Shown here: positions 13,321-51,692 of the stretch, one piece after another
Numbering within the stretch: the stretch's first letter is position 1
Layout: each line of letters starts with the position of its first letter
From: an uncultured Ruminococcus sp.
GTDB taxonomy: Bacteria > Bacillota > Clostridia > Oscillospirales > CAG-272
DNA: 64,000 nt
Direction: 5' to 3'
Assembly: GCA_964622425.1 (NCBI GenBank)
Contig: CAZUQN010000003.1
Location: forward strand, 1,166 to 65,165
Notes under the pieces: generated by a model
What the model was told of the DNA's origin: nothing
What the model saw: the letters and a program-made list of their open reading frames with translations, nothing else
Database searches by the model: none
Translations under genes and position numbers: made by a program

Positions 13321-14322
13321 ATGAATTCCAATATCAGACCTGAAAATATGACTCGTATTACAACCAAGGAGCTTGCAGATGCTTTTATCGATGAGCAGGT
13401 AAGACGTGTGCGCGAGCAGGTAGGCGACAAGAAGGTGCTCCTTGCCCTCTCGGGCGGAGTTGACAGCTCTGTTGTTGCCGCCCTCCTCATCAAGGCAATC
13501 GGTAAGCAGCTTGTTTCCGTGCACGTTAACCACGGCCTTATGCGTAAGGGCGAGAGCGAGCAGGTAATCGAAATATTCGAGAAGGGCCTTAATGCCAATC
13601 TCGTTTACGTTGACGCAAGCGAGCGTTTCTTAAATCTCCTTGCAGGTGTCAGCGAGCCCGAGAAGAAGAGAAAGATCATCGGCGCTGAGTTTATCAACGT
13701 TTTCGCTGAGGAAGCGTCCAAGCTCGAGGGCATCGAATTCCTTGCTCAGGGCACTATCTATCCCGACATTCTCGAGAGCATCAAGCAGGCAGAGGGCAAG
13801 AAGGCGGTCAAGTCGCACCACAACGTAGGCGGACTCCCCGAAGACCTTCAGTTTGAGCTTGTTGAGCCCCTGAAGCTTCTCTTCAAGGACGAGGTAAGAG
13901 TCGTTGGTGAGGCTCTCGGCCTTCCCCACGGTATGGTCTACCGTCAGCCCTTCCCCGGCCCCGGCCTCGGTGTAAGATGCCTCGGCGCGATCACCCGCGA
14001 CAGACTCGAGGCACTCAGAGAGGCAGACGCTATCCTCCGCGATGAGTTTGACAAGTGCGGTCTCGCCGAGAAGGTATGGCAGTACTTCATCGCTATTCCC
14101 GACATCAAGAGCGTTGGCGTTAAGGACGAGAGCCGCTACGAGGGTTGGCCCGCAATTATCCGCGCTGTCAATACCACCGACGCAATGAGCGCAACCATCG
14201 AGGAGATTCCCTACGCAGTGCTTCATAAGATCACCGCAAGAATCACCAATGAGGTTGAGGGAATCAATAGAGTTCTCTACGATCTTACACCTAAGCCTAC
14301 GGGAACAATCGAATGGGAGTGA
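13321..14322 (+). CDS. guaA: GMP synthase ATP-pyrophosphatase subunit (no glutamine amidotransferase domain)
   Basis: 333 aa. The SGGVDSS PP-loop lies about 50 aa from the N-terminus, and the C-terminus TGTIEWE matches the GuaA dimerisation end. Only 37 nt separate it from fhs, so no GATase domain can be encoded upstream. Confidence 0.85.
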   Translation: MNSNIRPENMTRITTKELADAFIDEQVRRVREQVGDKKVLLALSGGVDSSVVAALLIKAIGKQLVSVHVNHGLMRKGESEQVIEIFEKGLNANLVYVDASERFLNLLAGVSEPEKKRKIIGAEFINVFAEEASKLEGIEFLAQGTIYPDILESIKQAEGKKAVKSHHNVGGLPEDLQFELVEPLKLLFKDEVRVVGEALGLPHGMVYRQPFPGPGLGVRCLGAITRDRLEALREADAILRDEFDKCGLAEKVWQYFIAIPDIKSVGVKDESRYEGWPAIIRAVNTTDAMSATIEEIPYAVLHKITARITNEVEGINRVLYDLTPKPTGTIEWE

Positions 14323-14511
14323 CTTTCGCGCCGCGAAAGTCAACTATGATTGCCTGACGGCAAGTTATGATACGCTTCGCGTAAGTTTAAATGCTCGCTA
14401 CGGCTCGCATAAAGTTAGATAGGCAATCATTTCATAACGAGTGCATAGCACTCTCATAACTTTCACGCAGTGAAATCATAACGTTCGCTTTGTGAACTCA
14501 TAACTTTAAAC
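14321..14511. repeat. mini-hairpin array with constant word TCATAAC (family copy 1 of 3)
   Basis: Starts on the guaA stop codon. Example units: gagtgcATAgcactc TCATAAC tttcacGCAgtgaaa TCATAAC gttcgcTTTgtgaac TCATAAC. The left half carries the reverse word GTTATGA. Confidence 0.7.
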
Positions 14512-18508: not shown

Positions 18509-18905
18509 TGGGGCCAACGCCCATTAACTAAGCTTGTCAAGGACAAGCTTAACTTCACTCGGGCTTCGCCCGAACTTCACTCGCACTCCGCGCGAACTTC
18601 ACCAAATACAGTTCATGCAAAGAAGCAAATTACACAAATAACAGGCTGAAAAGCAAACAAAAGTGCTCATTATGGCGTTGTGTTCTCTAGAAACGCAACG
18701 CCAACTCTATTCGCCTCTCGGCGGGCTCTATTGCTAAAGCAGTTATATTGCTCCGCAGTTCTATTCACTTCGCGAGTTTGAAGTTAGAGGCGAATAGAAT
18801 ACAACTGTGAGGCAAAGCCGAACAATATAACTTCCCGACAGGGAAATATCACTTTTGCGTAGCAAAAATATCATGCTGTCATAGACAGCATATCACTAAA
18901 AGCTA
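18509..18905. repeat. long mini-hairpin array with words ACTTCAC and ATATCAC
   Basis: Example units: aagcttgtcAAGgacaagctt AACTTCAC tcgggcTTCgcccga ACTTCAC tcgcacTCCgcgcga ACTTCAC ... ttcccGACAgggaa ATATCAC ttttgcGTAgcaaaa ATATCA tgctgtcATAgacagca TATCAC. Confidence 0.65.
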
Positions 18906-18947
18906 TCAGATAATGCGCGCTTTCTCACCGCCAAAGGTGCAGGCGCG

Positions 18948-18988
18948 AAAAAAGCCGATACGGATCTATTTCCGTATCGGCTTTTTTC
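18948..18988. terminator. bidirectional rho-independent terminator between guaB and the convergent lipoprotein gene
   Basis: aaaaaAGCCGATACGGAtctatTCCGTATCGGCTtttttt: a 12-bp stem flanked by an A-run and a T-run. Confidence 0.75.
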
Positions 18989-19035
18989 TGTCTTTTAGAG
19001 CACTGTTTAAAACGAATGAGCACTTTTTTATTTTA

Positions 19036-20109
19036 TTAATCGTCGGAGTAGACAGCCGACACCGAGTAGTAATACGTTTCATCCTCGAAATAGGCGCTAA
19101 CACCGTCCTCTTCCATAAGAATATAAACGTTAATATCTCCAAGCTTATAGACGAAGAATCTTTCGGGATATTTTTCAAGGAAAATCGAAACCAAAGAAGG
19201 ATAGGTTTTTCCCGTTTCTTTGTCTAAATACAGTCTACCGTTTGCTTTATCTGATGCGTAGAACGTCATTGAGCGTAATGGACTTTCGGGATTTGTACAA
19301 TCCGGATCGATCACGCTATAGTTTATACCGAAGCTATTCATAGTATCTCTTCCGGCACCCGCGCTTATCTTAGCAGACATAGGCAAGCTCATAGAAACGT
19401 CAATGCTCGAAACAGGGTTCTCCTTCACCGTATCAAATTTTGAAGGATAGTATACAGAGTCCTTTAAGTATTGCAGGTAATCCGTAGCGATGTAGCCCGG
19501 ATTGCTTTCGTCCTCCGCAGCGTCGTAGCTCCAATACTTTATCTTGCCTACGTAATCATTATCAAGCGTTGTAAAGTTGCTCTCATCCATTCCAACGTAC
19601 GGCTCCTTGAATTCGTAGCGCTTTATGGAAAGCAACATTTCTTTAAACTCGGGATACTTATTAAGATCGTCAAGAGAATTCGGAACTACGTATCCGTGTC
19701 CCTCAAAATTGTAATCAACAACGTTATAATTAACCTTGACGGTCTTTCCCTTGTATACAAAGCTCAGTTCATTTCCGTCACCTAACTCATAGAGATAAAT
19801 TAAAAAAACAATCTCTTTCTGACTCTTTCTGCTATATGCATACGATACAACCGTGTTTTCGTGATTGCAATCGATCTTAATATCCTTGTAGGTTTCGTCG
19901 GTAATATCCTCGCCATATAGTTTTACGGTGATTTTAGTCTCAGTCGCAATTTCAAAATCAAGCGTGTCGGAGCCCGAAACACCGTCAATAGTTACCTGAA
20001 ACGCCGTGTTTCCTTTCGACCACGATTTACCAATATCTCCGCAACCGAACAGCGAAAAACACATCGTCAATACAATAACCAAAAGCAAAATTTTAGCTGT
20101 TGTTTTCAT
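19036..20109 (-). CDS. lipoprotein of unknown function
   Basis: Preferred start is the ATG at 20109, preceded by GGAGGTAAG. The N-terminus MKTTAKILLLVIVLTMCFSLFGC carries a lipobox. The track ORF extends further upstream without an SD. Confidence 0.6.
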   Translation of the reverse strand: MKTTAKILLLVIVLTMCFSLFGCGDIGKSWSKGNTAFQVTIDGVSGSDTLDFEIATETKITVKLYGEDITDETYKDIKIDCNHENTVVSYAYSRKSQKEIVFLIYLYELGDGNELSFVYKGKTVKVNYNVVDYNFEGHGYVVPNSLDDLNKYPEFKEMLLSIKRYEFKEPYVGMDESNFTTLDNDYVGKIKYWSYDAAEDESNPGYIATDYLQYLKDSVYYPSKFDTVKENPVSSIDVSMSLPMSAKISAGAGRDTMNSFGINYSVIDPDCTNPESPLRSMTFYASDKANGRLYLDKETGKTYPSLVSIFLEKYPERFFVYKLGDINVYILMEEDGVSAYFEDETYYYSVSAVYSDD

Positions 20110-20217
20110 CTTTCTTACCTCCTTTACGATTATAGTATATATCATTTTTTGATAATTGTCAATAGTTGTAAGTTCTGCCATAAACAGCAATGTTTCCAAA
20201 GCATCTCTGAACAACGC

Positions 20218-21534
20218 TTATTCTCTCTCTTCTTCATCCTCAGTACCCATAATTATGCTGTGTCCGGGCGCCCATGCATCACGGGTATATCCGCAATATA
20301 TACAACTGGAATATCGCGGAGACATTTGCTTGAATAAGTGCATTTCCGTATATTCATACCCACAACTGCAGATAGACTTATGTAATGAGTTGGATATAAT
20401 ACTGTTGGAAGCATGGTTATGAGTCTCCGTTATTAAGTCTCCCCATACACATTCATACGTATGGCTGGTTGCATTTGAAGATATTAAGGTACCGCTACTA
20501 TTATGCACGTGCTTAGGATGCAAATCACCGTAAAATTCACATGCACACGCCACTCCCCCATCTGATAATACATAGTTATTTGAGCAACCGTGTGGGATCA
20601 TAGCCTCGTTGATCTCAAACCAAAGTATCCCTATATTCATGTTATAAGGCATATCAGATAGATTTTGACAATATGCATATTCACCCGTTGTATCTCTCCA
20701 GCCTGTGTGCATAACAAAATCAACAACCTCTCCGTTTTCCTTTTTTACGTCATAAGCTATCATCCTGTGACCCGTTTTCTTCGGAAATAGTTCATTACCG
20801 GTATATCCGTCAGCATATCTTGCACCTCTATACATAACAGGAATACCACTATCCACCAACTCCGCCATTTTGCTAATTACATAATCGGATGAATGTCCAT
20901 CGTTTGTGCTTAAATAATTGATTTTTAGCGGTAATTGAGCATCGGCAGGATTATAAAAACCGTACGGATCAAAATAAGTGTAGTTACCAAAGATATCGTC
21001 AAAGTAGATATCGAGTAAAAGTCCTGTTTCATATAGACTCGCGGCGTATTCATCATTTTGAATCAAGCCATCATAATATCCCTCGTCGATTCCAATTCCT
21101 ATAAGGTCCAGGTGCAAATAGCCCGCATTTTGATACATATTAACAAAATTTATATAATACTCTTCGCGGCTTAATGTCCCACCTGAAGCCACATATTGGC
21201 TATACTGTGATGAAAAGAGATTATTCTCCGTTCTAATTGTGGAATATCCATTAATTAACGCAGAGTCTGTGTACGCTACACTCCAATCATATTGAGCATC
21301 AACAAAACTATCATTCCAATAGGTGTCGTAATAAGCGAGAAGCATGCTCATGGCAACGTAGCCACAGCTGCCAACAACGTTGTTGGGTATATTTCTCTTC
21401 AACTCAGAAAAGTATTTATCCGCGCTGGAGCTATACGTTTCTTCATCAGCAGAAGATGTCAGCACAAACACAGTTGAAACCAAAATAGAGAAAACAATGA
21501 TAATGGATATTATCTTTTTAACAGTTCTTTTCAT
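20218..21534 (-). CDS. secreted protein: possible papain-like cysteine peptidase domain plus a Cys/His-rich C-terminal region
   Basis: Start at 21534 after AAGGAGG. Signal peptide MKRTVKKIISIIIVFSILVSTVFVLTSSA. GSCGYVAMSMLLAYYD and TGHRMIAYD are candidate Cys and His sites. The C-terminus carries HxH motifs flanked by Cys. Confidence 0.4.
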   Translation of the reverse strand: MKRTVKKIISIIIVFSILVSTVFVLTSSADEETYSSSADKYFSELKRNIPNNVVGSCGYVAMSMLLAYYDTYWNDSFVDAQYDWSVAYTDSALINGYSTIRTENNLFSSQYSQYVASGGTLSREEYYINFVNMYQNAGYLHLDLIGIGIDEGYYDGLIQNDEYAASLYETGLLLDIYFDDIFGNYTYFDPYGFYNPADAQLPLKINYLSTNDGHSSDYVISKMAELVDSGIPVMYRGARYADGYTGNELFPKKTGHRMIAYDVKKENGEVVDFVMHTGWRDTTGEYAYCQNLSDMPYNMNIGILWFEINEAMIPHGCSNNYVLSDGGVACACEFYGDLHPKHVHNSSGTLISSNATSHTYECVWGDLITETHNHASNSIISNSLHKSICSCGYEYTEMHLFKQMSPRYSSCIYCGYTRDAWAPGHSIIMGTEDEEERE

Positions 21535-21714
21535 AAAGCCTCCTTGTTTTTCAATCAAATATCAAAAGAATAAAAATGTGTTTAATGACAATTCAAAAGT
21601 TGAATTCAGTCTTACTTCTGCATTGGCGTATACCTCCTCTAAAATGTCTGTTCATATATATAAATCCTTTTTCGATCAAATTCGTTACATAATAATTGTA
21701 ATGTTCACAAAGTA

Positions 21715-21746
21715 TTAACAAAAGCACCCTCAAAAGAAGGTGCTTT
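21715..21746 (-). terminator. terminator after the 136-aa secreted protein gene
   Basis: Minus-strand hairpin AAGCACC...GGTGCTT followed by TTTTG. Confidence 0.5.
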
Positions 21747-21757
21747 CGCGGTTTTTC

Positions 21758-22168
21758 TTAATTTGTTGCTGTTAATTCCTTGGTATAGACGTCAGCACTT
21801 CCGCCGCTACCTTCTACGGTAACCTCAAAGGTGCAACGGTATGTACCGCTGCCAACATCCTTTGTGAATTCAAAATTATCCGTAGCATTAGTAGAAGAAG
21901 CAGTCCACTCATCTACGTCACTCCACCAAAGGCCAAATAACCCTTTTTTCTCCAACGTTACTTTCACTGTTATCTTGGAAGTTACATTGGTATGCCCAGT
22001 AACGTATATAGAGGCAATGGCCAAATCATTCTGTATAATAAAAGAACAATCAATATTACTCGCATTATTGAGGCGAGGTTCAACCGCATATTCTTCCGCC
22101 GAAGCGACAACATTCATTCCAAAGCCCAGAAGAAGACAAAGCACAAGGACAAAAGAAATTTTCTTCAT
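21758..22168 (-). CDS. small secreted protein, unknown function
   Basis: 136 aa. Signal peptide MKKISFVLVLCLLLGFGMNVVASA and a strong SD (AAAGGAGGTG). Confidence 0.55.
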   Translation of the reverse strand: MKKISFVLVLCLLLGFGMNVVASAEEYAVEPRLNNASNIDCSFIIQNDLAIASIYVTGHTNVTSKITVKVTLEKKGLFGLWWSDVDEWTASSTNATDNFEFTKDVGSGTYRCTFEVTVEGSGGSADVYTKELTATN

Positions 22169-22276
22169 ATTTTCACCTCCTTTCGCATATATTATATATA
22201 TTTTATAATCCGAAAAGTGTCGAAAACGTTACATCATTTTTGAAAATTTAATAAAATTTAATATGTAACAAATCTA

Positions 22277-22305
22277 TTGTTTTTATTTTTCGTGTGATGT
22301 ATAAT
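22277..22305 (+). promoter_or_regulatory. candidate promoter of the ECF sigma operon
   Basis: TTGTTT, a 17-nt spacer, then TGTATAAT (an extended -10). Confidence 0.4.
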
Positions 22306-22331
22306 ATACGCGTAAATAAGGAGGACATCCG

Positions 22332-22880
22332 ATGTTATCACTTTATCTGAATATGCTTGACACAACGGAAGAAAAAAACAAGTTTCTACATATATACGAT
22401 AAATATGAACGGCAAATGGTTGATTTAGCCTACTCTATCCTGCGAGACAGTAATGATGCTAAAACCGCTCTTAACGATGCTCTGCTCTCGATAGCAAAAA
22501 ATATATACAAAATACCTGACGAGGACGAGGTCAGGGAGAAATCCTACGTCTTTAAAATAACCAAAAACGCCGCCCTCAAGTTATGGAATAAAAGCAAAAA
22601 GATCGAACAAATAAATCAGTTCCTCGACGTAAATATGGTGGCAGACAATCACACACCCGCAAGCGAGCTGATCTACAAAGAAGAGGTTCGTAAGCTTATA
22701 GGATACGTAAGATCATTATCAGAGAGCTATCGCGAAGTATTAATAATGAAGTACCTCTACGGTATGAGTTACGAGGATATCTCATCGGCTCTTGGCGTAA
22801 AGATTGAAGCCGTTAGAACAAGGTGCAGTCGAGGACTTGCTTTATTAAGAAAGATGATAAATAACGAGGTAAAGGTATGA
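22332..22880 (+). CDS. ECF-type RNA polymerase sigma-70 family factor
   Basis: 182 aa. Region 4 HTH: SYREVLIMKYLYGMSYEDISSALGVKIEAVRTRCSRGL. Confidence 0.85.
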   Translation: MLSLYLNMLDTTEEKNKFLHIYDKYERQMVDLAYSILRDSNDAKTALNDALLSIAKNIYKIPDEDEVREKSYVFKITKNAALKLWNKSKKIEQINQFLDVNMVADNHTPASELIYKEEVRKLIGYVRSLSESYREVLIMKYLYGMSYEDISSALGVKIEAVRTRCSRGLALLRKMINNEVKV

Positions 22881-23548
22881 CAACGGATAACAATATGACA
22901 TTGATTAAGGAGGCTCTATACGCTTTCGCCGCTGAAGAAAATGCACAAATTGAACGCGCTATAGAATCCGGTCCTAAGCCGCCGGAATCACTTTACTCAA
23001 GCTGCAGAGAAATTGCAGAAAAGATTGCAACAGAAAAAAAGAAGGTACTACCATTTAGGAAAGCGATAGCCGTTCTAGTAGCCGCAACTTTGATTATTTC
23101 TTTACTGACTGTAGTTGTTTATGCTGCGAGAAATAAGATAGGCGGATTTTTCATAGATTTCTTTGAGAAATATGCAGAGTTAACATCCGAAAATACAGAA
23201 GATAACAACTATACTCCCTCCGACGTTTCGATTACGTATCTGCCCGAGGATTATAACGAGACAAGAAAAAATATAGGTATAACAGGCGCACTTTATGAAT
23301 GGAAAAACAGCGAGAAAATTATAACACTACAATTCAGAATATTCTCTGACGGTTCTCAAGCTGTTGACACCGAAAATTCAGAGAATACCATAGTAGAGGT
23401 GGGTGATCTTACCGTATTCAGAACTGAAAAGTATGGGCAAATCAGCGCAACGTGGACCGATGAAAAAATGGTATATATTCTCTCCGCAACCGGCGTCGAG
23501 TGGGATGAGATGGTAAAGATCATTGAAGGAATAAAGATAGAGGAATAA
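22877..23548 (+). CDS. putative anti-sigma factor (single TM, extracytoplasmic domain)
   Basis: ATGA 4-nt overlap with the sigma gene. Central TM segment AIAVLVAATLIISLLTVVVYA. Confidence 0.6.
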   Translation: MTTDNNMTLIKEALYAFAAEENAQIERAIESGPKPPESLYSSCREIAEKIATEKKKVLPFRKAIAVLVAATLIISLLTVVVYAARNKIGGFFIDFFEKYAELTSENTEDNNYTPSDVSITYLPEDYNETRKNIGITGALYEWKNSEKIITLQFRIFSDGSQAVDTENSENTIVEVGDLTVFRTEKYGQISATWTDEKMVYILSATGVEWDEMVKIIEGIKIEE

Positions 23549-23663
23549 CAGTCGGAAAACACATCCACTTTTTATTCTTTTATGCTTGCTAATTGAAAAA
23601 CCGCCGTACCCACTGCGGTATAGCAGTTTTTTGTATATTTTATTTTACATTTCAAAACAAAAA

Positions 23664-45541: not shown

Positions 45542-45600
45542 TTTCGTTTCTCCTTGTGATATATATTAATTATTTTTTGTTTTCGCTGATGGTTATTTAG

Positions 45601-45740
45601 GTTGAGTTATGAGAGTGCTATCGCGCTCAACGTTATGGTATGATTGCCCATCAAACCTTAAACTTGGCGCCAGCCAATCATAACTACCCGAAGGGTATTT
45701 TAACTCATAACTTGCCCCACAGGGCAATCATAACTGCGAA
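45601..45740. repeat. mini-hairpin array with word TCATAAC (family copy 2 of 3)
   Basis: ttggcGCCAgccaa TCATAAC tacccGAAgggta ttttaac TCATAAC ttgcccCACAgggcaa TCATAAC. The left half carries GTTATGA. Shares the core tatgattgccc with the other two copies. Confidence 0.7.
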
Positions 45741-45743
45741 GCG

Positions 45744-46583
45744 TCAATCTACGATACGCTTCGCTTTTAGCTCCGCCTCCTCCTGCACTACCGCCTGCGC
45801 TCTCTCCGCATTCTCGTAAACGATCTTGTAGCAGAGTGCGTCGATAACGACGAGTCTCGCGAGGTGGGAATTCAGACCGAGGGTTGAGTGCCTCGTCTCC
45901 TCGGTATCGGTCAGGAGCACGATCTCCGACAGCCTTGCTATCGGTGACTTCTCGCGCGAGGTGATAGCTATCGTCCGCGCTCCGCGCGACCTCGCCACCT
46001 TCATCGACTCAACGATGTCCTTTGACGCGCCCGACTGCGATATGCCGATGACCGTGTCACCCGGCCTCAGCTGGGAGACCGCGATAGCCTGCATATGCGT
46101 ATCTGCATACGCCACAGAGTTACAACCTGCCCTGAGTAGCTTGTTGCTCGCCTCCGCCGCAACCTGCGCAGATGCGCCAAGTCCGATGAGCACTACCCTG
46201 CCCGCGCCCGCAATCGCCTTCACCGCGGCAGTCATAGCCTCGGGCGAGAGTGTCTTCTTCGTCCTCTCGAGCGACATGTAAGCGTCGTTGCAGACCTTCT
46301 CGAATATGCTGAAGCAGTCGTCCGACGCCGTGATGGTCGGAGCGATAACCTTCTTGTCGTGCTCTCTCGCCAGAGCGATCTTCAGATCCTGGTATCCCGA
46401 GCATCCGAGTCTCTTGGAGAATCGGACTATCGTTGCCTCGCTGCTCTCACACATGGAGGCAAGGTCTGTTATGGAATACGGAAGGATCTCTCCCGAGTGG
46501 GAGAATAACCAATCAGCGACTCTCTTCTCGGACTTGCCCATGTCATTGTACAAGAGCTGCGCCTGAAGTAGGGTCCTGTTCAA
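45744..46583 (-). CDS. MurR/RpiR family transcriptional regulator (HTH + SIS domain)
   Basis: 279 aa, TTG start 7 nt after AGGAGG. N-terminal HTH (SEKRVADWLF, TDLASMCESSEATIVRF) and a SIS domain. Confidence 0.85.
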   Translation of the reverse strand: MNRTLLQAQLLYNDMGKSEKRVADWLFSHSGEILPYSITDLASMCESSEATIVRFSKRLGCSGYQDLKIALAREHDKKVIAPTITASDDCFSIFEKVCNDAYMSLERTKKTLSPEAMTAAVKAIAGAGRVVLIGLGASAQVAAEASNKLLRAGCNSVAYADTHMQAIAVSQLRPGDTVIGISQSGASKDIVESMKVARSRGARTIAITSREKSPIARLSEIVLLTDTEETRHSTLGLNSHLARLVVIDALCYKIVYENAERAQAVVQEEAELKAKRIVD

Positions 46584-48315: not shown

Positions 48316-48719
48316 GGGGCCGGCTGAATTTGGGATGGAAATCAGTAGCCGTAAGGGAACCGAACTAATAAGTCTTACGGCGATAACTTTTAGTGTCTTT
48401 CGCCACGCCGAGTCTTGTAAAGTCGCACTTGACCGCGACTCGTCGCAGCAAAACCCATCAAAAATTTGTTCGCCGTAAGATGCGAAGCAGTTATGAAAGA
48501 ATAGATTTTTTCATAGACGAGCCAAATCTTTCGAGAAATATACAGATATTTAAGAAAAATTCGGTGATGTATAGGGGAAAATCTATCTTTCATAACCTTG
48601 TGAGTTTAGTTCCCTTACGGCTATCCGCCCGAGAGGCGTATATACATACGTCGGAGGAAGGAAACGGCGATAGAAAAAGAGTGTAAGAGGTGGAAATTAC
48701 GAGAATTTCCACCTCTCAC
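48316..48719. repeat. structured intergenic element, long copy (possible ncRNA)
   Basis: Shares both ends with 28405-28613 and has about 195 extra internal nt. Long-range pairing TAGCCGTAAGGGAAC (48345 region) with GTTCCCTTACGGCTA (48610 region). Same terminal hairpin. Confidence 0.4.
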
Positions 48720-50992: not shown

Positions 50993-50994
50993 AA

Positions 50995-51150
50995 CGCCGC
51001 CCTCGGCGTTAACGTTCACGCAGTGAACATATCGCACCGTCGCGAGCGACGGTATATCGCTGTCTAACCTTTCAGACAATATCGCATCTGCCAAAGGCAG
51101 ATATATCGCTTTAATCCGCCCACGTGTGGGCGGATTAAACATTTTCGTCC
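50995..51150. repeat. mini-hairpin array with word ATATCGC
   Basis: gttcacGCAgtgaac ATATCGC accgtcgCGAGcgacggt ATATCGC tgtctAACCTTTCagaca ATATCGC atctgccAAAggcagat ATATCGC, followed by ttaatccgcccACGTgtgggcggattaa. Confidence 0.7.
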
Positions 51151-51400
51151 AAGCCCACGGGTGGGACTAGGGGGACCGCAACGGGGTTCCTCGATGCGAG
51201 CGAAGTCGAGCATCAGGGGTTCGCGTGCTGGCGGTGGATGAGTAGTTACAAAGCGAAGCGGTGGAGGAGTCATTCTGCGTACAAAGTCTTGCAACTACTC
51301 ATCCGTCATTTGCTCCGCAAAATCCACCTTCCCTCACAAGGGAAGGCCGAGAAAAAAGAGCCTCGCATTTCTGCGAGGCTCTAAAACTTTGTATTCAACA

Positions 51401-51508
51401 CTCCCCTTTGGGGAGGGATGGGCCACGAAGTGGCGGGTGAGGTTTAATTAGTTAGAGTATCGCAACCTCATCCACCATAAATGGTCCCCCTTCCCCAAAG
51501 GGGGAAGG
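51401..51508. repeat. MITE-like pair of inverted two-hairpin repeat units
   Basis: Left arm: CTCCCCtttgGGGGAG..GCCACgaaGTGGC GGGTGAGG. Right arm: CCTCATCC ACCATaaATGGT CCCCCTTCCCCaaagGGGGAAGG. Confidence 0.5.
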
Positions 51509-51692
51509 TCGTAGATGCTACGCACTTCGAATTTTGCACTTGCGGCTCTGCCGCACCGACCGAGCCCGCAGGCGAGACAAGGGGGACCATTTATGGTGGA
51601 TGAGGTGTACTTCGTACAAAACCTTACAACTACTCATCCGTCATTCTCAAACAAGTTTTCGAACGACACCTTCCCTCACAAGGGAAGGCCGA

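What the first reader, a model, noticed from the sequence alone, without database searches (positions are those of the whole stretch)
14321..14511. TCATAAC-family composite element: unique mini-hairpins separated by a fixed 7-mer, three copies in the window
Three ~130-190 bp intergenic elements (14321-14511, 45601-45740, 63785-63915) share one architecture. The left part has hairpins preceded by GTTATGA. A conserved core (tatgattgcc...) follows. The right part has hairpins each followed by the reverse word TCATAAC. The words and the core are conserved between copies. The 5-7 bp hairpin stems differ completely from unit to unit and from copy to copy, yet always remain self-complementary, with 3-4 nt loops. 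That is not what simple copy-paste repeats look like. It implies either selection for structure independent of sequence, or a mechanism that generates palindromes next to a fixed word.
Basis: seen in the sequence. Interest (0 to 1): 0.65.

Follow-up and report, generated by a model that had tools for sequence, protein, structure and literature searches.

The report
Hairpin-word repeats of Avd-like cassettes
The three intergenic repeats built from tiny hairpins separated by the word TCATAAC are real, and they appear to be gene-less copies of a widespread small cassette, not described in the literature I could search, whose full form carries one gene for an Avd-like (PF05635) nucleic-acid-binding protein; this gives a candidate partner for the long-unexplained 7-base repeats of bacteria.

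Summary
The element is asymmetric: copy 1 is inverted relative to copies 2 and 3. Each copy starts at the stop codon of a co-oriented upstream gene. The stems are not all unique; several recur between copies and across about 35 gut and rumen Clostridia genomes.

Hairpin pairing is kept through compensatory changes (96% paired against 69% in shuffles). Loops are C-GNA-G on the strand that reads TCATAAC, in both arms. Orthologous spacers in close relatives are empty or hold a different word family, so turnover is fast.

The main result: full-length relatives carry a single PF05635 gene (23S_rRNA_IVP, Avd-like pentameric four-helix bundle) between or just after the two inverted word arrays.
- Of 56 PF05635 genes found by protein similarity alone, 71% have a 7-mer repeated at least 4 times just upstream. 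Distant control windows give 5.7%.
- Word families track protein clades.
- Bacteroidota and cyanobacterial versions are plain inverted tandem heptamers.

No transposase and no Rfam family fits. The window holds no PF05635 gene, so its three TCATAAC copies and a fourth ATATCGC array are gene-less derivatives. Binding of the words by the protein, and the way the elements spread, are inferred, not shown.

The parts
14321..14341 (+). Copy 1, first long hairpin (LH): GACTTTCGCG-c-CGCGAAAGTC. It begins inside the guaA stop codon (TGA at 14320-14322).
   Evidence: Sequence. guaA C-terminal domain identified. Fold.
14342..14383 (+). Copy 1, 5' arm: AACTATGA, hairpin TTGCC-tgac-GGCAA, GTTATGA (14364-14370), hairpin TACGC-ttc-GCGTA.
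   Evidence: The same order is seen in L011, L156 and L152.
14384..14431 (+). Copy 1, spacer. It holds an inverted GCTCGC..GCTCGC unit plus GTTTAAA, then AGGCAATCAT, the distal partner of TATGATTGCCT at 14345-14355.
   Evidence: Long-range inverted repeat tested (2 mismatches of 12 in this copy).
14432..14511 (+). Copy 1, 3' arm: TCATAAC x4 (14432, 14454, 14476, 14498) separated by three 15-nt hairpins, then TTTAAAC.
45736..45764 (-). Copy 2, LH. GCGAAGCGT (the last RpiR codons) pairs with ACGCTTCGC. The RpiR stop codon (45744-45746) lies at the start of the loop.
   Evidence: Orthologues L135-L148 have the same coding end but lack the complementary arm.
45664..45735 (-). Copy 2, 5' arm (read on the - strand): GTTATGA x3 with hairpins TTGCCC-tgtg-GGGCAA, TACCC-ttc-GGGTA and TTGGC-tggc-GCCAA.
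45589..45663 (-). Copy 2, 14-nt spacer, then GGGCAATCATA (45639-45649) and the 3' arm (CCATAAC, hairpin GAGCGCG-ata-GCACTC, TCATAAC, TCAACC...). It ends where homology with the orthologous spacers resumes (CAGCGA).
63864..63916 (-). Copy 3, 5' arm. AACTATGA supplies the stop codon of the upstream ORF (63909-63911). Then TTGCCCC-aa-GGGGCAA, GTTATGA x2 and TTGGGC-aca-GCCCAA.
63784..63863 (-). Copy 3, spacer, GGGCAATCATA (63840-63850) and the 3' arm: TCATAAC, TTTTGT-gca-ACAAAA, TCATAAC, GTTCGC-gca-GCGGAC, TTATAAC.
50993..51140 (+). Fourth array, of another word family. LH AACGCCG-ccct-CGGCGTT sits directly after the thioredoxin stop. ATATCGC x4 follow, each preceded by a hairpin, and a closing hairpin ends the array. 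Only one arm is present.

Best explanation
The three TCATAAC elements, and the ATATCGC array at 50993-51140, are gene-less derivatives of a small cassette family.

What the full-length cassette looks like: one gene for a PF05635 protein (23S_rRNA_IVP; a pentameric four-helix bundle in the same family as the DGR accessory protein Avd), together with two inverted arrays of a lineage-specific 7-nt word. The 5' arm reads GTTATGA-like and usually contains a stop codon. The 3' arm reads TCATAAC-like. In Clostridia each word is separated by a 5-7 bp mini-hairpin capped by C-GNA-G. In Bacteroidota and cyanobacteria the words are simply tandem.

Where the cassettes sit: immediately behind the stop codon of a gene, or behind a tRNA gene and its terminator, co-oriented with it. 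They start with a long hairpin that sometimes copies the gene's own end in inverted form. They are gained, lost and replaced between close strains.

Inferred mechanism: the word-plus-hairpin modules are the cis sites read by the PF05635 pentamer, by analogy with Avd, which grips an RNA stem-loop with flipped-out bases held between its protomers. Gene-less arrays would then be served in trans by a cognate protein encoded elsewhere in the genome.

Shown: the anatomy, structural conservation, orientation, strain polymorphism, the gene-array association, and the agreement between protein clades and word families.
Inferred: binding, whether RNA or single-stranded DNA is bound, and how the elements spread.
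For: Gene-array association:
- L114 has the PF05635 gene exactly between a GTTATGA arm and a TCATAAC arm.
- L149, L152, L153, L156 and L015 have a complete TCATAAC element directly upstream of the gene.
- In 80 PF05635 loci fetched by protein similarity alone, 71% of 56 upstream flanks hold a 7-mer (with its reverse complement) at least 4 times, against 5.7% of 283 windows more than 700 nt away. Arms are inverted around or ahead of the gene.
- Protein identity is 0.79 within a word class and 0.55 between classes; 0 of 2000 permutations reach this difference.
- No other gene recurs in the cassettes.
- Bacteroidota loci L071, L023, L048 and L092 have the gene flanked by heptamer arrays; they are inverted in L071 and L048.
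- In 75 non-Clostridial arrays, reverse-complement words lie upstream in 22 and downstream in 2.

Structure:
- Hairpin covariation is strong.
- C:G closes 126 of 137 loops, and loops are GAA/GTA/GCA/AAA on the TCATAAC strand. This holds in both arms and in other word families.
- A long-range inverted repeat covaries with the first stem.

Position and turnover:
- Elements are co-oriented with the upstream gene: about 16 of 20 family elements with a called upstream gene, all 3 window copies, and 35 of 42 cassettes, 13 of them behind tRNA genes.
- Orthologous sites are empty or differ between close strains.

The protein:
- It matches pentameric PDB entries 2RLD and 2GSC.
- Avd binds a stem-loop with all five protomers (bioRxiv 10.1101/2023.10.23.563531).
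Against: - The window has no PF05635 gene, and the rest of the genome could not be read, so a cognate gene in this organism is unproven.
- Binding of words or hairpins by the protein is not shown.
- The association could arise because the gene tends to land next to existing arrays.
- Protein-word concordance is confounded by shared descent.
- PF05635 has no known catalytic activity, so spread remains unexplained.
- GNA loops follow the word strand in both arms. This points to DNA-level or mirror-duplicated modules, whereas the Avd precedent is RNA.
- About 4 of 20 family elements were not co-oriented with the nearest called ORF.
- Only about 5 of 120 arrays from the genome scan have the gene within 0.5 kb.
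Confidence: 0.6

Rival explanations
1. REP/BIME-like or PATE-like elements. The hairpin plus fixed word is the substrate of a single-strand HUH Y1 transposase (RAYT or IS200/IS605 TnpA) encoded elsewhere, which cuts at TCATAAC and shuffles [hairpin+word] units between arrays.
For: - Each unit is a hairpin followed by a fixed single-stranded word.
- C-GNA-G loops (known to me as very stable DNA mini-hairpins) lie on the word strand in both arms.
- G:T mismatches outnumber A:C 16 to 5 on that strand.
- The mosaic make-up resembles BIMEs (own knowledge).
- The empty site in the window reads TTCATAAG where L028 has an array.
Against: - No Y1 transposase or other transposase was found in the window ORFs tested or in the syntenic loci whose Pfam tables were returned.
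- The 34 family loci share no recurrent neighbour other than guaA, and the 80 cassette loci share none at all.
- The recurrent partner is PF05635.
- The hairpin-free tandem-heptamer versions in other phyla give an HUH enzyme no hairpin to recognise.
- Copies within the window are far more diverged than REPINs usually are.
Confidence: 0.12
2. A purely cis-acting RNA structure in the 3' UTR or intergenic mRNA, independent of PF05635. It could act as a 3' stabiliser, an attenuator or terminator, an RNase III processing site, or a translational operator for the downstream gene.
For: - Co-orientation with the upstream gene.
- Orientation follows gene strand while GC skew does not flip across the window.
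- Folding z-scores of -4.1 to -4.8.
- The last words abut the Shine-Dalgarno sequence of the next gene in many loci.
- MacGregor 2015 proposed translational control for TAACTGA repeats (PMC4679880).
Against: - Strains with identical GuaA protein have an empty spacer, a gene-less element or a gene-carrying element at the same site.
- Loop and wobble asymmetry follows the word strand, not the transcript.
- No Rfam family matches.
- This reading does not explain the PF05635 link.
Confidence: 0.15
3. Retro-mobility. The cassette RNA is copied by a reverse transcriptase supplied in trans (DGR-type RT needs Avd), and snap-back or template switching makes the palindromes, including the inverted copy of the host gene's end.
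For: - PF05635 is the Avd family, and bRT is inactive without Avd.
- LH arms are templated from upstream coding sequence in window copy 2 and in L149, L152, L156 and L185.
- The order gene end, hairpin, avd-like gene matches the layout of the Bordetella phage DGR (own knowledge).
Against: - No RT gene was seen in any cassette locus.
- Mini-hairpin types are inherited across genomes rather than made anew.
- No adenine-specific mutation pattern was examined or seen.
Confidence: 0.08
4. Chance clustering, or simple slippage of a 7-nt microsatellite, with no partner protein.
For: Tandem heptamer arrays change in 7-nt steps between strains (PMC4679880).
Against: - Word counts and unit counts are far above shuffles.
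- Unique hairpin spacers cannot arise by slippage.
- The multi-part architecture is conserved in about 35 genomes.
Confidence: 0.02

Closest known systems
Intergenic heptamer direct repeats (TAACTGA repeats of Beggiatoaceae, Cyanobacteria and Bacteroidetes, MacGregor 2015, PMC4679880; cyanobacterial STRR heptamers)
   Same: - 7-nt words repeated in intergenic DNA.
- The forward orientation carries stop codons.
- They lie next to gene ends or starts.
- They are present or absent between close relatives.
- The partner protein is unknown.
- A tandem run of TCATAAC reads TAACTCA, one base from TAACTGA.
   Different: - Here every word is separated by a unique mini-hairpin.
- Two inverted arms are bracketed by a long-range inverted repeat.
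- A PF05635 gene is found as the recurrent partner, which that paper does not mention.
REP / BIME / REPIN elements with their RAYT transposases (Gammaproteobacteria)
   Same: High-copy extragenic palindromes made of modules in both orientations, a short fixed word next to a variable stem, and a position at the 3' ends of genes (own knowledge).
   Different: - A 7-mer on both sides of each hairpin instead of a 5' GTAG.
- Stems differ within one element.
- No RAYT was found.
- The partner gene is a four-helix-bundle protein, not an HUH enzyme.
23S rRNA intervening sequences carrying a PF05635 (S23p) ORF (Leptospira, Coxiella; PMC4990558)
   Same: A PF05635 ORF enclosed by inverted repeats that can form a stem. 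The element is suspected to be selfish or mobile, with sporadic distribution.
   Different: - The site is behind protein-coding or tRNA genes, not in 23S helices.
- The arms are arrays of 7-nt words with mini-hairpins, not one 28-bp stem.
- Most copies have lost the ORF.
Avd of diversity-generating retroelements and its RNA stem-loop site
   Same: The same protein family. Avd is a pentamer that binds a 9-11 bp stem-loop capped by a tetraloop, with flipped-out bases held between protomers. The gene sits just behind the 3' end of another gene.
   Different: - No RT, template repeat or variable repeat is present.
- There are many short hairpins with triloops rather than one stem-loop.
- Repeated 7-nt words are present.
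Integron attC sites
   Same: Structure is conserved while sequence varies, and only short boxes ending in AAC / starting with GTT are fixed (own knowledge).
   Different: - The boxes are in the opposite order relative to the hairpin.
- Units are 13-19 nt, not 55-140 nt.
- There is no integrase and no cassette array.

Membership tests
PF05635-associated inverted word-array cassette (family defined here) | Two arms of the same 7-nt word in inverted orientation, GTTATGA-like arm first | tested here: met
   Copies 1-3. The same polarity is seen in 30 other cassettes and in 22 against 2 non-Clostridial arrays.
PF05635-associated inverted word-array cassette (family defined here) | Sequence-level homology to elements that carry the gene (AACTATGA-TTGCCC..GGGCAA start, GGGCAATCATA-TCATAAC junction, TCTAAAC/TAAAAC end) | tested here: met
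   Window copies compared with L156, L149, L152, L153, L015 and L114.
PF05635-associated inverted word-array cassette (family defined here) | Carries the PF05635 gene | tested here: not met
   tblastn and hmmsearch of the window find none. The window copies are therefore gene-less derivatives.
PF05635-associated inverted word-array cassette (family defined here) | A cognate PF05635 gene elsewhere in the same genome | not testable with these tools
   Only 64 kb of this genome is available.
Heptamer direct repeats (TAACTGA/STRR type) | 7-nt unit repeated in direct orientation in intergenic DNA, with stop codons in the forward reading | tested here: met
   TCATAAC x4, x3 and x2, and GTTATGA (which contains TGA). 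Period is 20-24 nt instead of 7 because of the hairpin spacers.
Heptamer direct repeats (TAACTGA/STRR type) | Units directly adjacent (a tandem array) | tested here: not met
   Only one adjacent pair (63879/63886). All other words are separated by hairpins.
REP/REPIN-RAYT | A RAYT (Y1 HUH) gene flanked by the repeats | tested here: inconclusive
   None in the window ORFs tested or in the syntenic loci with Pfam tables. The 34 family loci share no recurrent neighbour other than guaA, and the 80 cassette loci share none. The whole genome was not available.
REP/REPIN-RAYT | Conserved GTAG-type tetranucleotide 5' of one imperfect palindrome whose sequence is shared by the copies in a genome | tested here: not met
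   The 7-mer lies on both sides of each hairpin, and there are 74 distinct stems in 137 units.
IS200/IS605-derived PATE | Subterminal hairpins at both ends on the same (top) strand | tested here: not met
   Loop and word polarity is mirrored between the two arms.
Any Rfam RNA family | Match to a curated covariance model | tested here: not met
   No match at gathering score, and none at E<=10 on copy 1 apart from one chance hit (11.6 bits against a gathering score of 45) that lies outside the element.
23S rRNA intervening sequence | Inserted in helix 9, 25 or 45 of 23S rRNA | tested here: not met
   The flanks are guaA/heparinase-like, RpiR/ackA and an ORF/DUF559. There is no rRNA in the window.
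Integron attC | RYYYAAC ... GTTRRRY boxes closing a 55-140 nt imperfect hairpin next to an intI gene | tested here: not met
   Box order is reversed (GTT... first...AAC last), units are 13-19 nt, and no integrase was found.

The most novel reading that the evidence does not exclude
Stand-alone PF05635 (Avd-like) pentamers are sequence-specific readers of 7-nt words, and each protein clade has its own word. The protein and its two inverted word arrays form a minimal selfish cassette. It parks behind stop codons and tRNA genes and sheds large numbers of gene-less arrays. Its spread involves a palindrome-making step, seen as inverted copies of the host gene's end, possibly with a reverse transcriptase supplied in trans. 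If so, the unexplained heptamer repeats of Cyanobacteria, Bacteroidota, Beggiatoaceae and gut Clostridia, and the function of hundreds of thousands of 'four helix bundle protein' genes, would have one common explanation.
Probability: 0.3. Interest if true: 0.85.

Novelty: new variant of a known kind. Interest (0 to 1): 0.72.

Why it matters
Heptamer repeat arrays have been known since the cyanobacterial STRRs (own knowledge). MacGregor (2015) surveyed them again and stated that no transfer mechanism is evident and that the repeat-binding protein still has to be identified (PMC4679880). Separately, PF05635 'four helix bundle' proteins outside DGRs have no known function.

This window led to a direct physical link between the two. 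It can be tested with one purified protein and one synthetic RNA or DNA.

For genome annotation, it explains a class of hypervariable spacers directly behind stop codons in gut and rumen Clostridia. These spacers can supply stop codons and terminator-like hairpins to host genes.

The word-plus-hairpin design, with words that covary with a small protein, may also be useful as a set of orthogonal protein-nucleic-acid recognition pairs.

Tried and rejected
- Rfam, in gathering and E-value modes: nothing on the elements.
- Literature search for the two words as tokens: nothing relevant.
- Exact-protein look-ups for window GuaA and AckA: not on record.
- The genome scan pattern allowed a 14-nt gap, so two thirds of the 120 loci were plain (TCATAAC)n tandem heptamers. 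I first dismissed them as unrelated. They later proved relevant.
- Replication-linked orientation, as expected for IS200-type elements: not supported. GC skew keeps its sign across the window while element orientation follows gene strand. This rests on one head-on case only.
- Length variation of RpiR homologues as a sign of element-encoded C-termini: rejected. The variation is at the N-terminus (start-codon calls), and the C-terminus is conserved.
- Search for a recurrent neighbour gene other than PF05635: in the 34 family loci only guaA, as an insertion hot spot; in the 80 cassette loci, none.
- A constraint of unit period on reading frame (period not divisible by 3): not seen. Hairpin lengths of 14, 17 and 20 nt are not avoided.
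- Xer/dif-like and integron attC-like readings: considered from memory and dropped. Spacing and box order do not fit, and no recombinase is present.
Full report
**1. The observation**

The window is chromosomal DNA of an uncultured Clostridia bacterium, 48.5% G+C. Its closest relatives are rumen and gut MAGs; a GuaA homologue 99% identical is named 'MAG: Clostridia bacterium', GCA_017453245.1.

TCATAAC and its complement occur 24 times against 7.6 expected, and no shuffle exceeds 16. Fifteen of the 24 lie in three clusters. All hairpin units with an exact word lie in those clusters. With 1-mismatch words allowed there are 24 units against 8.4 +/- 2.9 in simulations. All three regions fold much better than their shuffles (z = -4.3, -4.8, -4.1).

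**2. Anatomy, and a correction**

A genome-collection scan for three spaced TCATAAC words returned 120 loci. About 35 of them, all from Clostridia, Eubacteriales, Oscillospiraceae or Ruminococcus MAGs, carry the same composite element.

Comparing them shows that the element is asymmetric. Read in what I call the sense direction it is:
- a long hairpin (LH);
- AAC-TATGA;
- TTGCCC-loop-GGGCAA;
- (GTTATGA-hairpin)n;
- a spacer of about 14 nt;
- GGGCAATCATA;
- (TCATAAC-hairpin)n;
- TCATAAC-TCTAAAC-TAAAAC.

Copy 1 is sense on the + strand. Copies 2 and 3 are sense on the - strand.

TATGA plus the 5' half of the first stem is complementary to GGGCAATCATA at the start of the 3' arm. The partner is found at a fixed distance with at most 2 mismatches of 12 in 24 of 31 elements, and never downstream. 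It covaries: TTGCCC/GGGCAA, TCGCC/GGCGA, GTTCCGC/GCGGAAC.

The stems are not all unique:
- 137 units have 74 distinct stems, and TTGGC, TTGCCC, TCGCC, GTTTGC, TGTGCC and TACGC stems recur across genomes.
- The window copies share homologous units. One example of a compensatory difference is TTTCAC/GTGAAA against TTTTGT/ACAAAA.
- In 23 distinct 15-nt units, 96.4% of cells pair against 68.7% in shuffles, and all six pairs change on both sides.

**3. Strand signature**

On the strand that reads TCATAAC, the loop-closing pair is C:G in 126 of 137 units. The loops are GAA (38), AAA (13), GTA (13) and GCA (10). This holds in both arms, so the 5'-arm hairpins have GNA loops on the antisense strand. 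It holds in 30 cassettes of other word families too. Single mismatches are G:T 16 times and A:C 5 times on that strand. The module [stem-GNA-stem + TCATAAC] is therefore one strand-specific unit used in mirror image in the two arms.

**4. Position and dynamics**

Each window copy starts at the stop codon of a co-oriented gene:
- Copy 1: guaA. The LH starts inside its TGA.
- Copy 2: the RpiR-family regulator gene. The LH encloses its stop codon.
- Copy 3: an ORF whose stop codon is the TGA of AACTATGA.

Of the 20 family elements with a called gene on the 5' side, about 16 are co-oriented with it. GC skew keeps one sign across the window while element orientation follows gene strand.

Orthologous sites differ between close strains:
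- The purH-purD spacer is 17 bp in the window (TTCATAAGG...) and holds an array in L028.
- The RpiR-ackA spacer is 58-120 bp and lacks the element in 14 relatives.
- The guaA-heparinase spacer, among contigs encoding the identical GuaA protein, is either empty (56 bp), or holds a gene-less element of a different word family (ATTAAATCC/GGATTTAAT and ATGAAGTC/GACTTCAT), or holds that element plus an extra gene.
- The 3' end of guaA is a hot spot. TCATAAC elements sit there in the window, L015, L075, L076, L149, L152 and L153.

**5. The partner gene**

In L114 a 117-aa gene lies exactly between the GTTATGA arm and the TCATAAC arm. In L015 and in L124/125/127/128/131 the same kind of gene directly follows the element. 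It is PF05635, 23S_rRNA_IVP (E = 6e-27 and 7e-26). It matches the PDB entries 2RLD and 2GSC, each deposited with five chains. 2GSC is described as five four-helix bundles and as homologous to the DGR protein Avd (PMC10053308).

A metagenome scan with an alignment of three such proteins gave 80 loci chosen by protein similarity alone.
- In the 300 nt upstream of the gene, a 7-mer (with its complement) occurs at least 4 times in 71% of 56 loci. The figure is 5.7% for 283 windows more than 700 nt away.
- There are two layouts. In one, the gene lies between the arms; L186 has ATTTAGC x4, the gene, then GCTAAAT x9. In the other, a complete two-armed element lies directly upstream, with the last word next to the Shine-Dalgarno sequence.
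- Words differ between loci: GTTATGA, GTGATAT, ATGATATC, TGATATTGC, AATGATGT, GTGATGT, GTGAAGT, GTGAAGCG, AATTTAGC, AGTTAAGAT and others. Most share a TGA.
- Words follow the protein tree. Identity is 0.79 within a word class and 0.55 between classes, with 0 of 2000 permutations as extreme.
- Related hosts carry different protein-word pairs (L124 against L149-L156; L181 against L185). This argues against a pure host effect.
- No other gene recurs in these loci.
- 35 of 42 cassettes follow a co-oriented gene, 13 of them a tRNA gene with an A/T-tract terminator.

The window itself has no PF05635 gene and no transposase among the ORFs tested. Its arrays are therefore gene-less.

**6. Wider reach**

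The loci I had set aside as plain (TCATAAC)n tandem heptamers belong to the same picture. L071, L023, L048 and L092 (Bacteroidota and others) have a PF05635 gene flanked by tandem heptamer arrays without hairpins; the two arrays are inverted in L071 and L048. In 75 non-Clostridial arrays, reverse-complement heptamers lie upstream in 22 and downstream in 2.

Heptamer direct repeats in Beggiatoaceae, Cyanobacteria and Bacteroidetes were described by MacGregor (2015). That paper notes stop codons in all frames, presence or absence between relatives, 'no mechanism is evident', and the need to identify a repeat-binding protein. It does not mention PF05635 (PMC4679880). My searches found no paper that links the two. 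That covers only the library searched.

**7. Palindromes at the junction**

In window copy 2 the LH pairs the RpiR coding sequence GCGAAGCGT with ACGCTTCGC just after the stop. Orthologues have the coding arm but not its complement.

In L149 and L152 the LH pairs the last 15-18 nt of guaA, including the stop codon, with an inverted copy. Each copy matches its own gene variant. L156 and L185 behave likewise. A process that creates or perfects palindromes at the insertion junction is therefore likely. I cannot tell whether it belongs to the insertion mechanism or is later template-switch 'palindrome perfecting'.

**8. Mechanism**

Shown:
- The window elements belong to a family whose full-length members are PF05635 cassettes.
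- The hairpins and a long-range pairing are maintained by covariation.
- The elements sit behind stop codons, co-oriented with the upstream gene, and turn over quickly.
- Words and protein clades go together.

Inferred: the PF05635 pentamer reads the word-hairpin modules. Avd, of the same family, binds a stem-loop with all five protomers and holds flipped-out bases between them (bioRxiv 10.1101/2023.10.23.563531).

Two functions fit, and they are not exclusive:
- Arm recognition for spread or recombination. Inverted subterminal repeats are typical of mobile DNA.
- Control of its own translation and processing of the read-through transcript. The arms could pair like the stem of the PF05635-bearing 23S intervening sequences, which RNase III cuts (PMC4990558).

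The mirror symmetry of the GNA loops favours a DNA-level or duplication-by-inversion origin of the arms. Co-orientation with genes favours an RNA-level role or cost avoidance. How copies multiply is unknown.

**9. Verdict**

The HUH guess is not supported. The elements are a hairpin-spaced Clostridial variant of the heptamer-array phenomenon. They led to a gene association, not reported in the literature I could search, that makes an old open question testable.

Noticed in passing
window 50993-51140: A fourth hairpin-word array with a different word. ATATCGC x4 are each preceded by a mini-hairpin, directly after the thioredoxin stop codon. Only one arm is present.
   Followed up: partly
window 51150-51640, 59110-59160, 59637-59680, 59893-59935, 63115-63160, 63205-63250, 63661-63710: A G+C-rich repeat, CCTCATCCACC-n4-GGTCCCCCTTCCCC-aaa-GGGGAAGG, made of two adjacent hairpins, in at least 8 copies in both orientations. 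It flanks the two DUF559 (Vsr-like endonuclease fold) genes at 59212-59595 and 63276-63653. This may be another small selfish cassette. TCATAAC copy 3 lies just upstream of one of them.
   Followed up: no
window 48490-48596: GTTATGAAAGAATAGATTTT ... AAAATCTATCTTTCATAAC: a 107-bp segment closed by a 19-bp inverted repeat that ends in the two words, without mini-hairpins. It may be a degenerate relative or a chance match.
   Followed up: no
window 18600-23600: A low-GC block (39-42%). It holds a Gut-1 RNA match (18820-18898, minus strand, 50.4 bits against a gathering score of 50), three secreted proteins without Pfam hits, and a putative sigma / DUF4367 pair; only DUF4367 was checked against Pfam. 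The block is absent from the syntenic locus of the 99%-GuaA relative (L121).
   Followed up: partly
L132 11003-11720: An insertion of about 720 bp carrying a 154-aa ORF of unknown family, right at the guaA stop codon. It is bounded by a 12-bp direct repeat, GAGTGGGAATAA (the end of guaA). A homologous ORF sits inside a truncated word element in L121.
   Followed up: no
L149-L228 (e.g. L171, L191, L195, L207, L218, L227): 13 of 42 PF05635 cassettes lie directly downstream of a co-oriented tRNA gene, behind a perfectly palindromic A-tract/T-tract terminator.
   Followed up: partly
5'-arm words in all families (window 14364, 45678-45734 minus strand; L149-L228): Nearly all 5'-arm words contain a stop codon in the sense direction (GTTATGA, GTGATAT, ATGATGT, GTGAAGT, AGTTAAG, AATTTAG). 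Arrays can therefore close any reading frame. In copy 3 the element supplies the stop codon of the upstream ORF.
   Followed up: partly
L150 490-600: A TCATAAC-family element with its PF05635 gene is followed at once by an element of the ATTAAATCC/ACTTCATC word family. Different word families can therefore stack in tandem at one site.
   Followed up: no
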